Below are positions 2,216-53,940 of a DNA stretch of 64,000 bases, in pieces (the stretch's first letter is position 1; the number at the start of each line of letters is the position of its first letter). The stretch is from Octopus vulgaris (taxonomy: Eukaryota). A program made the translations under genes and the position numbers. Location: positions 17,112,001-17,176,000 of the forward strand of contig OX597814.1 of NCBI GenBank assembly GCA_951406725.2, given 5' to 3'. The notes under the pieces are model-generated. The model was not told the origin of the DNA, ran no database searches, and saw only the letters and a program-made list of their open reading frames with translations.

Positions 2216-2413
2216 TGACCTCGTGTGTACCGTTGGCGATTTCTTTTCCTCTGTCTTCTCTTCTCTGGATCTTTCCGTCTCCTATGTTTCCGACGAAGAG
2301 CTCCGCTCGAAACGTTAGACCCTCCTTCTTTCCTGAGCGTCCAATAATGCTATATTTGTTCCACGTCCTCGAGTTGTTGTGTTTTTTTTGTGCTTTCTTG
2401 TTTGGATTAACTT
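2216..2413 (+). mobile_element. ~200-nt hammerhead-bearing element, family A copy 1 (solo PLE pseudo-LTR or retrozyme-like)
   Basis: Aligns end to end with 6395-6601 and 15904-16108 (starts tgacc.cgtgtgtaccgttggcg, ends tttggattaactt) and is followed by (TA)n. Confidence 0.8.
2286..2320 (+). ncRNA. Minimal type I hammerhead-like ribozyme (U4C core variant)
   Basis: gttt CCGACGA a gagc-tcc-gctc GAAAC GTT agac: stem I gttt/agac (one G-U pair), 4-bp stem II, palindromic ACGT stem III. Confidence 0.65.
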
Positions 2414-2588
2414 TATATATATATATATATATATATATATATATATATATATATATATATATATATATAGAAAATAGTAAAAAGTGAAAAAACTACAGAA
2501 GGCTTAAAGGTTAAAAAATATATATATTTGCGTCAATATGTCTGAAGAATATTAAAAAAATTTTTTTCTTTACAATGACATAATTTAG

Positions 2589-2627
2589 AAGAAAGACCGG
2601 TTTCGCGTTTAGCTTTTCAAATTTCTT
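2589..2627 (-). ncRNA. Hammerhead-like fold in the inverted pseudo-LTR (U3-A8 core variant)
   Basis: Minus strand: aagaaa t TTGAAAA gc-taaac-gc GAAA ccgg TC tttctt. It has a 6-bp stem I and a palindromic ACCGGT stem III, but one extra nucleotide before the core and only a 2-bp stem II. Confidence 0.55.
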
Positions 2628-2670
2628 GCGATGTCATGTTTATATTGAATTAATTAAAAAAATTAACCTT

Positions 2671-3683
2671 AAAATAGAAACAGACATTTTTTACAAAGCC
2701 ACAGACGCCAAACAATACCTTCTTTTTAATTCATGCCACCCAAGACACACTAAAACAAACATCCCCTTCAACCTTGCAAGAAGGATATATGCACAATAGT
2801 GTCAGAACAACATACCAGGAACTTTAGACTGCAAGAACTCAAAAACACCCTAATTGACAGACATTACCCAACTCAACTCATAGAGGATGGGATCAGACGT
2901 GCAACAGAAATCAACATAGAAACTTTAAGAAAAGTTCAACACAACAACACACCTTCCCCGAAAATACTACCTTACATATGTACATACAACCCCAGAAACA
3001 AAGAAGCCTTCACCATCATCACCCAGAATTTACCAATACTTCATAAGGACCCCAAATTAAAGGAAATTCTAAACATACACCAAATCATTAAAAGCTACAA
3101 ACAACCTAAATCACTTAAAAAGATTCTCACAAAGGCAAAATTGTTTTCTGAAATTACGGATGCAAAAGTAAAAAAATGTGGTAGATCGAACTGTGCAACA
3201 TGTCCAAACCTGCTAGAAGGATCAGAATTCCTCTTTAAAGAGGGACAGAAATTCAAGATCAAATCTAACTTTACTTGTGCCTCTGAAAACATAATTTATG
3301 TCATAAAATGCTCGGGCTGCCACCAAGACTACGTGGGATCCACGGGACTATCACTCAGACGTAGATGCACACTGCATCGACAACAGATTGCATTCCCAGA
3401 ATACAGAATGATACCTTTTAGTGAGCACATTGAGAAATGCGCAAAGCAACTACTACCACAATTTTTAATCTTTCCATTTTACCAATGTGCTATCGGATCA
3501 TCAACACAAATTAGACTAAACAAGGAAACATTCTTCATTGAAAAGTACAAGCCCAGACTTAACCATGCCAACATACTGATACAGAGAAATTCACACAAGG
3601 GAAAGGAAAAAAATTTTAAGCGATTATCTCCCTTACACCGGAAGAAATCACTCATTACCTCCCCTTATTTAGAACTCTTTTGA
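2671..3683 (+). pseudogene. PLE polyprotein C-terminus: RT thumb, Cys-rich linker and GIY-YIG endonuclease (Neptune-like)
   Basis: 2671-2787 reads KIETDIFYKATDAKQYLLFNSCHPRHTKTNIPFNLARRI (PLE thumb motif), with a frameshift near 2790. ORF 2799-3683 has KKCGRSNCATC and FTCASENIIYVIKCSGCHQDYVGSTGLSLRRRCTLH...E...PRLN. Confidence 0.92.
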
Positions 3684-4663
3684 ACATAAACATAACGATA
3701 ACTCTATTCAACATAAACATAACGTCGCAAGAAAGTTGAAAAGCTAAACGCGAAACCGGTATGTCATTGTAAGGAAAAAAAAATTTTTAATATTCTTCAG
3801 ACATATTGACGCAAATATATATATTTTTTAACCGTTAAGCCTTCTGTAGTTTTTTCACTTTTTACTATTTTTTATATATTCAACCACGTGCTTTCACAAA
3901 CCAACTTTCTTATCTATATATATATATATATATATATATATATATATATATATATATATATATTACGAATATATATATACACATACATAAAATTATAGAC
4001 ACTGGTCTCGTGGTCAGATTTGTTGTAGACTCGAAAACTAATGAATTGGTGAAATACAGTATTTTATAGTGAGGCGCCTTAGTTCAACGTTTCCGCTCTC
4101 GATAGAATTAAGTGCGCAGAGAGCCTTTAGCTTGCTAAAGTGGAATTTATGAATTACTATTTTCACGTGTGAGGAAAGTTTGGAAAATGTCCGAGAAAAA
4201 TACCAATGCCGGGAACATTTTGATAATATTTATCTTCAGTTTTAAACATGTCACATGTATTTTACAATATGAAATGTTTCAGTTTGCTTCATACTATATC
4301 ACCATGATTTGTTTTACTTATAAAATATCACTAAAAATTATATTTTGTGTTACTGGAGTACATGCTATCCCATGGCTTTTGAGTAACTAGATCAATAGCT
4401 ACAGACATGTTGAAATCATTCTTTGTCCTCAATGAGTACTGCTTCAATGTTTCCACAGATAGACACATTATTTCAATACTGTCAAGGAAACGCTATCATC
4501 TCGTGGAAAAGTAGTATCCTCTTAGCGAACAGGTAAAATATTTGTAAGTTACACGTTGTTTAACACCGTGGTGGCAGTGCGCAGCGTAGTTGTTTGTTTC
4601 CGTCTGTAGTATTTGATCTAGAATAATATTTTATCAATAATTCAGTAACTGATCTATATGTTA

Positions 4664-4778
4664 CGGGAATTGTAGGGTTTATAACATTCGGAAACAAAAA
4701 TGGTTTCTAATAATCGGAGACAAAAAGGTTTATAATATTCGGGAATTGGAGGGTTTATAATATCCGAGGCAAAAATGT
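4664..4778. repeat. Degenerate ~25-nt minisatellite
   Basis: Recurring ggtttata(a)tattcgg-like units, four to five imperfect copies. Confidence 0.55.
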
Positions 4779-51329: not shown

Positions 51330-51490
51330 AATACCATCCTTCGTCTTACGTGTTTAAATTATAGACAGAATCTTTACAATTCCAATATAGTCCCATATAA
51401 GATTAAGACACATCTGTTGTCAAAACAGGAATAACAGACAAACAATATTTTGAATGTCTTTTGAAACAAGAGAAATGCCAACGAGTGACA

Positions 51491-51830
51491 GTCTCAGATA
51501 AGATGAAGATTGTATCTTACCGAGTGGCAGAATTGATAGCTCAGCAGACGTAACTGTATACAATAGATGAAAGATTGATTGTGGAAACTTTGGTGGAATG
51601 CCGAGCGAGAAGTTATGAAAATTCTTTTGTCTGATAATACAATTTGTAGAAGAATAGCGGATATGTCAACTAATTTTGTGAAGCGTATTTCCGAAAGTAG
51701 GAAGAATTTTGAAGTTAACATTGAAGTTGGTGAATAGACTGATGTTAGTGGAAAAGCACTGTTGTTGGTCTCTATAAGTTTCGCTCACAATGGCAAAATA
51801 GTCGCAGTTTCTATTTTGCAAGGAACTTGA
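51491..51830 (+). pseudogene. hAT (Charlie/Buster-type) transposase relic
   Basis: Across frameshifts it reads VSYRVAELIAQ..*LYTIDERLI / EVMKILLSDNTICRRIADMS / VGE*TDVSGKALLLV / QFLFCKEL. This matches the ASY.VA..IAK, LSnNTV.RRI.DMS, DESTDVS..AQLLV and FLFC..L motifs. It is not in the ORF track. Confidence 0.78.
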
Positions 51831-53280
51831 GAATTATAACAGCAAATAAGATATTGTTTTAAAACTTCTCTGAACTTAGTAAAAATGTGAGATGTGATAT
51901 TTTGTATTGGAATATATAGGGTTGGCGAACGCTGTATGATAGAGAATGCTAAGGTATGCATCATAATGAATCGAATGAATCGAACCCAGTACTTACTTTT
52001 TAAGCCTAGTTTTTATTCGATCTTACCTTTCGCAGAACTATTAAGTTACGGGGATGAAAGCCTACTAACATCGGTTATCGAGCGGTGGTGGGTGACAAGC
52101 ACACATGCATACTCACACACACACTCACACAAACATACGCACACACACACATACATATGTATATTATACTATCCCGTGGAGGTAAGATCAACAAAAATGT
52201 ACTCCATTGATGAGAAAAATATGGTTTAATGAACACAAAATTTCATGAGTTGTTAATAGATTCATGCAATGAAGACAGCACAGACAGCATCTTATAACAC
52301 ACCTAGTGCCTTCATGCATTCTTCATGTTGTGCTCACATGATATATACAAGGTAAGACGTGACGAAAGAATAAGAGAAAATACAAGAAAAGGCAAGTAAG
52401 TAGATGTAAAAGACGGAAGAGTGAAACCAAGAGAAAACGAAATGTAAAGGAAAAAAAGAAAACAGATAAAGCAAAAAAAAAAAAAGGATGTGATGTAGAT
52501 AAGTATCCCCTTTCACTGTAATGCTATAAAAAGGCAGAACAAACAGGCGTCTAGTGTTTGTGGTACAGCCGCCTAATCATTAGAGGTGGTATTTTCCAAT
52601 TTGACATCAGAACTATATCCACATGTTTACATCCTCCGAAAATACAGATCTAGAATTCAGCAGTACGGTGGAGTTCTTAGATCTGAAAAAGATCTGCGAT
52701 TTTTCAGCTATGCGTAGCTTGCATTATTTTGATCCATTAATATATAGCATGGATTTTTCAACTATTTTCAACTTTATTGTATGTGATGTGACGTTAGACA
52801 TCACGCTCTGTACGTGGCAAGCCAAATTAGTGGATTTATATCTGTCCCTGAGGCGGAAGAAAGACACGTAGTTTACATAGCGATTTTTGAAGTAACCTAC
52901 ACATAACTTGATGTAAATATTCGTTACGGTTAGTTATCATCTAGCGTTGCTATAACTTCTGCCTCATACATGGCGGATTTAATCATGCACTCCTGGTCGA
53001 GTGGACAACTTCCTGAATCTCGACAGTAACAACTAGGAGTAGGCTGTCGGTTGTGTTTGAGTGTAACAATGCCCTTCGTACTGGGGAAGCAGCTATATGA
53101 TAATTTAATTCGTGTATGTAAGATCGTGAAACATACCGATGCATAATCACAGTAATTTACATCTTAAATGATTCTCTTCAAATACTACTACTACTACTAC
53201 TACTACTACTACTACTACTACTACTACTACTACTACTACTACTACTACTACTACTACGTATATATATATATATATATATC

Positions 53281-53391
53281 ATTGTTCTGGGGAGAGTCAT
53301 TCTATTTTAATTAACACACTCACCGGTTCGATTTCCACCCATTTTCTTATTTATTTTTCCTAAAATTTTCGTTGCGTCTTGCAACCTCTTC
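53281..53391 (-). mobile_element. Truncated hammerhead-bearing remnant next to (TA)n
   Basis: Minus strand: GAAGA g gttgc-aagac-gcaac GAAA at TT tagg. Stem II, GAAA and the palindromic AATT stem III are present; the 5' end of the core is missing. Confidence 0.5.
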
Positions 53392-53651
53392 CTTTGTCGT
53401 TGACTCTGTTCGCATTTGGAGCAGCGTTCTTCTTGTCTGTTTGCTTGTGCGCTTGTGTTTACACATATGTATGCATGTATGTATGTATGTATGAATGTAT
53501 GTATGTATGTATGTATGTATGTATGTATGTATGTATTACGTATGTATGTATGAATGTATGTACGCACGTGTTTGTATGCATACTGTAAATTTTGTGAATA
53601 CTTGATAAGTGTAAGCACATGTATATGCCAGATAGTGGCAGAGGTGAGAGA

Positions 53652-53940
53652 ATATATCAAATATATATCAAAAGCAGAACACAAAGGATATCATGGTACA
53701 CGTGTTTCAAGATTTATAAACAATCCGTTATTACATCAGTGTATTATTGATATAAAAGATGGTTTAAAGCTCTCTTCAGCCGCAAACATTGTTAGTCCAA
53801 ACATTGCTTGCCGCTGAAGAGAGCTTTAAACCATCTTTTATATCAATAATAAACTGATGTAATAACGGATTGTTTATAAAATTTGAAACACGTGTACCAC
53901 GATATCCTTTGTGTTCTGCTTTTAATTTATATTTGATTTA
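53652..53940 (+). mobile_element. Palindromic hammerhead element with extended stem II
   Basis: Arms ~53652-53785 and ~53808-53940 are reverse complements around a ~22-nt loop; (TA)n follows. Confidence 0.85.
53810..53900 (+). ncRNA. Type I hammerhead fold with canonical core and 64-nt stem II region
   Basis: gccg CTGAAGA [53821-53884] GAAA cacgtg TA ccac, with palindromic ACACGTGT stem III. The mirror copy (minus strand, 53693-53783) has better stems: gcgg/ccat, gag/ctt, taaac/gttta. Confidence 0.6.

What the first reader, a model, noticed from the sequence alone, without database searches (positions are those of the whole stretch)
2286..53900. Many hammerhead-ribozyme element families at (TA)n, with compensatory swaps of the catalytic 3-8 base pair
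Seen: about 15 hammerhead-topology folds (stem I, 7-nt core, stem II, GAAA, stem III, UH, stem I) in about 8 element families with unrelated flanks. The cores are CTGACGA (6467, 15974), CTGAAGA (53814), CCGACGA (2290, 18518, 19237), TTGAAAA (minus strand at 2614-2620, and 3736), TTCATAA (18017), GTGAACA/GCGAACA (minus 18923-18929, and 18951) and CTGTGGA (minus ~15185-15191). In every complete core, positions 3 and 8 stay Watson-Crick: C-G, U-A or G-C. Established: C3-G8 is a tertiary Watson-Crick pair in the active hammerhead, and PLE pseudo-LTRs carry minimal hammerheads with palindromic stem III. Inference: this genome hosts a radiation of PLE-derived self-cleaving elements using non-canonical cores, including a G3-C8 form that CUGANGA-based searches would miss.
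Basis: partly seen in the sequence, partly recalled or inferred. Interest (0 to 1): 0.9.

Follow-up and report, generated by a model that had tools for sequence, protein, structure and literature searches.

The report
Retrotransposon hammerhead with swapped G3-C8 pair
Thirteen hammerhead-shaped RNA motifs here belong to seven repeat families, at least two of them Penelope-like retrotransposons, and one young family carries a swapped core base pair (G3-C8) that likely still lets the RNA cut itself and that I did not find reported in nature.

Summary
The observation largely holds: 13 type-I hammerhead (HHR) motifs in 7 repeat families, not about 15 in 8. A strict descriptor finds 5 in the window against 0.14 per shuffle. 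Copies fetched by flank alone keep positions 3 and 8 paired: C-G in four families, U-A in two, G-C in one. Penelope-like element (PLE) hammerheads and the U3-A8 core are published (PMC4209133). The G3-C8 family is the new part: 20 of 20 copies chosen by long reading frame carry GUGAACA about 1 kb behind an RT plus GIY-YIG gene. Its sister family and a metagenome relative have C3-G8. I found no natural G3-C8 in papers I could read; one key paper (PMC5785218) was not held. This scan noted G3-C8 earlier in two other genomes (unchecked). Against activity: one family is fixed for A6U, the young sister family for A9C, and PLE insertion in vitro needs no cleavage. Cleavage is untested.

The parts
18886..18937 (-). 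Family G hammerhead, G3-C8 core GUGAACA (18929-18923); stem I 7 bp, extra base after A9, stem II 5 bp, palindromic stem III, U17; predicted cut 3' of 18893
   Evidence: predicted fold forms stems I and II, z -2.6
18943..18994 (+). Inverted second copy of family G hammerhead (GCGAACA, U4C in this copy, stem I 5' side cut short)
18807..19135 (.). Family G insertion: two inverted 5'-truncated pseudo-LTR pieces; the + copy keeps the 3' tail, which in a long-ORF copy holds the likely start of the ORF
2472..3910 (+). 5'-truncated Neptune-like PLE copy (family U1) with inverted 5' pseudo-LTR, between (TA)n runs
2677..3596 (+). RT-thumb, CxxxxCxxC linker and GIY-YIG endonuclease fragment with one frameshift; 97-100% identical to an 850-aa frame elsewhere in the genome
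   Evidence: (GIY-YIG E 0.012, below cutoff)
2588..2627 (-). Family U1 hammerhead, U3-A8 core UUGAAAA, 2-bp stem II, stem I one base out of register
3729..3768 (+). Family U1 hammerhead in 3' pseudo-LTR; 3' strand of stem I deleted in this copy
18010..18054 (+). Family D hammerhead; family core UUGAUAA (U3-A8), this copy G5C; stem III palindrome varies CUAG/CAUG among copies
2286..2320 (+). Family A hammerhead, CCGACGA (C3-G8, U4C), in a ~200-bp element
6463..6497 (+). Family A hammerhead, CUGACGA, stem I damaged in this copy
15970..16004 (+). Family A hammerhead, CUGACGA
19233..19267 (+). Family A hammerhead, CCGACGA
15160..15195 (-). Family F hammerhead-like motif, CUGUGGA: C3-G8 kept, A6U fixed in the family, N7 varies among subfamilies
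18513..18572 (+). Family E hammerhead, family core CCGAUGA (C3-G8, U4C), long stem II, 12-nt palindromic stem III
53810..53900 (+). Family H hammerhead, CUGAAGA, about 65-nt stem II, palindromic stem III
53693..53783 (-). Inverted second copy of family H hammerhead

Best explanation
These motifs are hammerhead folds at the 3' ends of repeat families, shown to be the pseudo-LTRs of Penelope-like retrotransposons for two families and likely so for the rest, and the G3-C8 core of family G is likely a compensatory swap kept because the ribozyme still cuts, weakly, as a dimer or with help from the element's protein. Shown: family G is a young protein-coding PLE family (RT, then C-terminal GIY-YIG endonuclease) with the G3-C8 motif about 1 kb behind the stop codon. 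Most copies are 5'-truncated, often with an inverted partner, and many sit in (TA)n. Inferred: in a tandem copy the motif lies just behind an intron-acceptor-like signal and about 100 nt before the likely start codon, so cutting after U17 would release unit-length element RNA from a read-through transcript. G3-C8 would keep the 3-8 pair that positions the 2'-OH of residue 8. The palindromic stem III would pair between two motifs. U17 rather than C17 may avoid a trapping G3-C17 pair.
For: Strict descriptor 5 hits vs 0.14 in shuffles. Flank-only sampling, majority 3-8 pair among copies that retain the core: G-C 22 of 23 (G), U-A 24 of 25 (U1), U-A 17 of 21 (D; 3 of the 21 are fuzzy mis-hits on truncated copies), C-G 23 of 23 (A), 22 of 24 (F), 13 of 16 (E), 14 of 19 (H). 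The 20 longest-frame copies among the 150 listed for the G endonuclease all carry GUGAACA 968-1122 nt behind the stop, and 10 of 20 have an inverted 5' copy. Loop II differs between old and young G subfamilies while stems and core do not. The sister family (54% protein identity, SH-aLRT 100 in a quick tree) and metagenome relative L391 both have C3-G8, and stem II has a G-C to A-U change in the sister. Three of 8 counted families differ at 3 or 8, all three stay paired; my hand estimate for two random core changes landing on 3 and 8 as a Watson-Crick pair is about 1 in 165. An engineered C3G/G8C double mutant partly restores cleavage in a PLE hammerhead (PMC11167929). A G3-C8 variant was more active with G17 than C17 (PMC3884650, data not shown there).
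Against: No cleavage data. The young sister family (20 best copies 99-100% identical to P0001, frames up to 1312 aa) has A9C and a non-palindromic stem III in 19 of 20 loci; the other locus gave no match. Family F is fixed for A6U (24 of 24). So a family can spread with a probably damaged core. HHR mutants did not affect PLE insertion in vitro, and no RNA reads ended at the cut site in that study (PMC11167929). The predicted monomer fold pairs G3 with U17, which would compete with the active form. No coding partner was found for A or D, and only single loci suggest one for H, E and F. Copies sampled are top BLAST hits and may include segmental duplicates. The tree is the quick one and only two relatives show their motif.
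Confidence: 0.68

Rival explanations
1. The G3-C8 motif is a catalytically dead or near-dead relic: it is a PLE hammerhead by descent, kept as a structural or protein-binding element of the pseudo-LTR, and the paired swap reflects past selection or luck.
For: Sister family A9C and family F A6U spread widely. Cleavage is dispensable for insertion in vitro (PMC11167929). PLE minimal hammerheads are slow even with canonical cores (PMC4209133). The C3G/G8C rescue is only partial.
Against: In G the other nine conserved core positions, the G10.1-C11.1 pair, both stems and the palindrome are intact in young and old subfamilies while loop II changes. A dead motif should not change only at 3 and 8.
Confidence: 0.27
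2. Families A, D and F are independent SINE-like or retrozyme-like elements that do not derive from PLE pseudo-LTRs.
For: No RT or endonuclease piece was tied to A (55 upstream stretches; the hits were neighbouring U1 or G elements) or D (30 stretches). A has a fixed 5' end and about 200 bp length.
Against: Minimal-HHR anatomy matches published PLE motifs. D shows inverted truncated copies like G, U1 and H. One F copy has an endonuclease remnant upstream (E 2e-4).
Confidence: 0.2
3. The motifs are chance folds in AT-rich repeats.
For: Several single copies fold no better than shuffles (U1 z +1.0, F z +0.3), and 8 of 13 fail the strict descriptor.
Against: 5 vs 0.14 hits, family-wide conservation, palindrome and stem covariation, fixed position behind PLE reading frames.
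Confidence: 0.02

Closest known systems
Minimal type-I hammerheads of metazoan Penelope-like elements (Cervera and de la Pena 2014, PMC4209133)
   Same: Type-I topology, extra base after A9, G10.1-C11.1, palindromic stem III, place in the pseudo-LTR, many families per genome, mostly solo or inverted truncated copies. U3-A8 cores UUGAUAA and UUGAAAA are in its Fig. S3.
   Different: None of the Fig. S3 rows as extracted (40 species; no cephalopod) has G3-C8 or U6, and its descriptors were C3-G8 and U3-A8. Families E and H have much longer stems II.
Natural hammerhead core variants (Perreault et al. 2011, PMC3088659)
   Same: Natural C3-G8 to U3-A8 covariation, A6C, U4C and 2-bp stems II.
   Different: The section read names no natural G3-C8, A6U or A9C; Figs 5, S6 and S7 themselves were not seen.
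Anolis Poseidon element PAc hammerhead (Frangieh et al. 2024, PMC11167929)
   Same: PLE pseudo-LTR hammerhead near the ORF start, 3' tail, protein-assisted cleavage; engineered C3G/G8C partly active.
   Different: There the swap is a laboratory mutant; here it is the natural sequence of a whole family.
Neptune and Nematis clades of C-terminal-endonuclease PLEs (Craig et al. 2021, PMC8557442)
   Same: RT followed by CX2-5CxxC linker and GIY-YIG domain. By eye against its Fig. S2, U1 resembles Neptune (long linker) and G resembles Nematis (short linker).
   Different: The G protein has 130 aa between RT motifs 3 and 4 against 61 in U1, an insertion-in-fingers-like feature that the paper describes for N-terminal-endonuclease PLEs and sporadically Coprina.

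Membership tests
Hammerhead ribozyme (family G motif) | Three-stem junction with stems I and II and a self-complementary stem III | tested here: met
   7-bp stem I, 5-bp stem II, palindrome AAUAUU; fold z -2.6 (window) and -3.7 (young copy)
Hammerhead ribozyme (family G motif) | Conserved U4 G5 A6 A9 G12 A13 A14 A15.1 U16.1 and H17 | tested here: met
   20 of 20 long-ORF copies
Hammerhead ribozyme (family G motif) | Literal C3 and G8 | tested here: not met
   G3 and C8 in 22 of 23 flank-picked copies and 20 of 20 ORF-picked copies; Watson-Crick pairing is kept
Hammerhead ribozyme (family G motif) | Self-cleavage 3' of residue 17 | not testable with these tools
   No assay; only assembled contigs were available for read laying
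Hammerhead ribozyme (family F motif) | Invariant A6 | tested here: not met
   U6 in 24 of 24 copies; filed as hammerhead-derived, not as a working member
Penelope-like element (family G) | Single ORF with RT and C-terminal GIY-YIG endonuclease | tested here: met
   839- and 1025-aa frames with DKSG, YVDD, CxxxCxxC and VYQI...YIGET motifs, matched by eye to PMC8557442 Fig. S2; Pfam gave no hit for G, RVT_1 E 0.004 for the sister
Penelope-like element (family G) | Pseudo-LTR with hammerhead, inverted 5'-truncated partner, optional 30-40 bp tail | tested here: met
   10 of 20 with inverted copy; tail present in part of the copies. A direct 5' pseudo-LTR was seen in the sister, not in G
Penelope-like element (family U1) | RT plus GIY-YIG ORF followed by pseudo-LTR hammerhead | tested here: met
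   811-869 aa frames in 4 of 4 fetched copies, RVT_1 E 1e-7, motif in the 3' repeat
Penelope-like element (families A, D, E, F, H) | Motif lies 3' of a PLE reading frame | tested here: inconclusive
   One locus each for H (L332), E (L330, inverted) and F (L155, weak); none for A, D
Nematis clade (family G) | Placement with reference Nematis RTs in a tree | not tested
   No named reference proteins were on hand; resemblance by eye only

The most novel reading that the evidence does not exclude
Family G is the first natural hammerhead with a G3-C8 core that is catalytically active and used by a currently mobile retrotransposon, completing three of the four Watson-Crick options at the catalytic pair in one genome, and many such ribozymes are missed by CUGANGA/UUGANAA searches; it sits in a little-described PLE clade with a 70-aa insertion in the RT fingers.
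Probability: 0.45. Interest if true: 0.7.

Novelty: new variant of a known kind. Interest (0 to 1): 0.55.

Why it matters
The C3-G8 pair was established largely through engineered C3G/G8C rescue. A natural, family-wide G3-C8 core would show that evolution uses that swap and would widen hammerhead search patterns. This genome also gives a natural series in related elements: paired swaps (U-A, G-C) next to probable loss-of-function cores (A6U, A9C) in families that still spread. That makes an open question testable: whether PLEs need their hammerhead to cut at all.

Tried and rejected
First descriptor without the extra base after A9 found 1 of 13 motifs, near shuffle level; replaced. Rfam scan and repeat finder were swamped by microsatellites. 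An endonuclease fragment 1.1 kb upstream of a G copy (L319) looked like its partner but belongs to a U1-related element with its own U3-A8 motif; rejected. I first doubted the 53814 motif for lack of a nearby GAAA; family copies show a long stem II. MAFFT alignment of G, sister and L391 motifs failed because of wrong coordinates and divergence; the comparison is by eye. The careful tree did not finish; the quick tree is quoted. Sequencing runs: no RNA holder listed; four contig sets laid on the G motif show no start or end signal, and contigs cannot show one. The metagenome scan gave 3 loci, only one reaching a motif. Literature: 7 searches ran and none showed a natural G3-C8. Lunse et al. 2017 (PMC5785218), Martick and Scott 2006, Przybilski and Hammann 2007 and Nelson and Uhlenbeck 2008 were not held, so prior report of G3-C8 there is not excluded. 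No tRNA gene in the window.
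Full report
Setting. The window lies in G000, a 2.8-Gb assembly. A relative of one of the element proteins is labelled Octopus vulgaris by NCBI and matches G000 at 100%, so the genome is probably that octopus. 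The window is rich in microsatellites.

Observation. I count 13 motifs in 7 families, which I label A (4 copies), U1 (2), D (1), G (2), F (1), E (1) and H (2). A strict minimal-hammerhead descriptor with positions 3, 4, 7 and 8 free finds 5 of them, against a mean of 0.14 and a maximum of 1 in 50 shuffles. In 400 kb of arbitrary genome it finds 6 (four C-G, one A-G, one G-C that looks like chance) against 1 in 10 shuffles. The window is therefore richer than average, and most copies in the genome are decayed.

Family cores without bias. I searched the genome with sequence 3' of each motif, leaving the core out (the best 25 or 30 loci of 40-44 matches were fetched), removed the window's own copies and read the core. 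Majority pair at 3-8 among copies that retain the core: G-C 22 of 23 (G; 28 loci), U-A 24 of 25 (U1; 29), U-A 17 of 21 (D; 29; three are fuzzy mis-hits), C-G 23 of 23 (A; 24), 22 of 24 (F; 29), 13 of 16 (E; 24), 14 of 19 (H; 23). Loci without a core are mostly 5'-truncated. Three corrections follow. The D copy in the window is a G5C mutant of UUGAUAA. F has U at position 6 in 24 of 24 copies, while N7 takes all four bases in subfamilies. H closes its stem II about 65 nt downstream. Palindromes and stems covary: CUAG/CAUG in D, CACGUG/CAUAUG in an H relative, and a double change in stem II and stem III of one E copy. A wider scan of 1.78 Mb held, mostly picked around these families, showed several more families with C3-G8 or U3-A8.

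What the elements are. U1 sits at both ends of a 5'-truncated PLE in the window (2472-3910) with an RT-thumb and GIY-YIG fragment. The family is young, with 150 listed endonuclease matches at 96-100% identity and frames up to 869 aa. Two long-ORF copies have a perfect 7-bp stem I, which the amplified subfamily in the window has lost. For G I walked upstream through an intron-acceptor-like signal and a microsatellite-rich stretch to a PLE reading frame. I then took the 20 copies with the longest frames among the 150 listed for that endonuclease. All 20 carry GUGAACA 968-1122 nt behind the stop, and 10 also have an inverted 5' copy. The young subfamily has a different loop II from the window's copies, with the same stems and core. 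About 100 nt behind the predicted cut site an ATG opens a frame through the 3' tail that resembles the N-terminus of the sister family's 1312-aa protein, whose copies show the full pseudo-LTR, ORF, pseudo-LTR layout (likeness by eye). Links to PLE frames are single-locus for H, E and F and absent for A and D.

Direction of change. The closest relative of the G protein is a second family in the same genome (P0001, 54%; SH-aLRT 100 in a quick tree of 26 rows chosen from 120 hits). Its motif has C3-G8, a homologous stem II with a G-C to A-U change, A9C and a non-palindromic stem III (19 of 20 loci). A metagenome relative (L391, 42%) has a canonical CUGAAGA motif behind its ORF. G3-C8 is therefore likely derived on the G branch. 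Three of the 8 counted families differ at 3 or 8 and all three stay paired. By hand, two random changes among 11 conserved positions hit 3 and 8 with chance 1/55 and pair with chance 1/3, about 1 in 165 (inference; uniform neutral model).

How it likely works. Shown: anatomy, position and family conservation. Inferred: transcripts that run through tandem copies would carry two motifs whose palindromic stems III pair, giving a dimeric hammerhead that cuts after U17 and frees unit-length RNA just upstream of the ORF. G3-C8 would keep the tertiary pair. The predicted monomer fold pairs G3 with U17; C17 would pair more strongly, and a G3-C8 mutant was reported more active with G17 than C17 (PMC3884650). 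U17 is common in PLE motifs, so this is a prediction, not evidence. Inverted copies like those in the window lie on opposite strands and could not dimerise in one transcript. The main rival is a relic: A6U and A9C families spread, and cleavage was not needed for insertion of a PLE in vitro (PMC11167929).

Known and new. PMC4209133 (main text parts 1-2 of 4 and supplement parts 1-2 of 3 read) describes minimal PLE hammerheads, many families per genome, inverted pairs and U3-A8, including the same cores as D and U1; its extracted alignment has no G3-C8. PMC3088659 (section 8 and passages) reports natural U3-A8, A6C, U4C and 2-bp stems II. PMC11167929 (passages) and PMC8495972 (one passage) give partial rescue by engineered C3G/G8C. 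PMC8557442 (passages, supplement search and part 54) defines the clades. PMC6765202, PMC6155905, PMC3884650 and bioRxiv 2026.07.22.740005 were seen as passages only. Seven searches showed no natural G3-C8. Lunse et al. 2017, the largest survey of PLE hammerheads as I recall it, was not held, and figures are not readable, so novelty is provisional. Two earlier notes of this scan report G3-C8 motifs behind PLE RTs in other genomes (not checked).

Verdict. Six of the seven families are new members or decayed forms of a known kind. Family G is a well-supported new core variant in a young protein-coding PLE family, with activity untested. Interest 0.55.

Noticed in passing
L372:2422-4938 and relatives: The G-family protein has 130 aa between RT motifs 3 and 4 (U1: 61); 56 of 120 relatives in which both motifs were found have 128-132. 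This is an insertion-in-fingers-like feature in a C-terminal-endonuclease PLE clade with mostly unnamed members.
   Followed up: partly
L394-L413: A second young PLE family with intact 1312-aa frames and full pseudo-LTR/ORF/pseudo-LTR copies carries a hammerhead-like motif with A9C and no stem III palindrome.
   Followed up: partly
window 15071-15255 (-) and many loci: Family F is abundant and fixed for A6U, with N7 = A, C, G or U in different subfamilies while the stems stay intact; it is related in sequence to family A.
   Followed up: partly
L372:5898-6075: Two contig sets guessed to be RNA (X1, X7) show 6 A>G sites each against 1 in the other two, which could be A-to-I editing of inverted-repeat transcripts; run type is not on record.
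   Followed up: no
L092:1420-1455; L372 near 5898-5925: Branch-point-like and acceptor-like signal about 20 nt upstream of the G motif; many truncated copies begin right at this point, recalling the intron that ends at the hammerhead in Drosophila Penelope.
   Followed up: partly
L319:1-800: A U1-related PLE (64-84% protein identity) with its own U3-A8 motif and perfect 7-bp stem I.
   Followed up: partly
window 21400-25600 (+): Broken non-LTR retrotransposon with RVT_1 (E 4e-13) and zf-RVT (E 2e-9) pieces.
   Followed up: no
window 16830-17210, 17375-17750: SINE-like repeats with a tRNA-like 5' part (recalled as octopus SINE families); ARAGORN calls no tRNA.
   Followed up: no
L046, L048, L026, L271, L280, L038: Further hammerhead families outside the window, several with long stems II and 6-8 nt palindromic stems III.
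   Followed up: no
window 1995-2025: Short stretch resembling the start of family H stem II without the rest of the motif.
   Followed up: no
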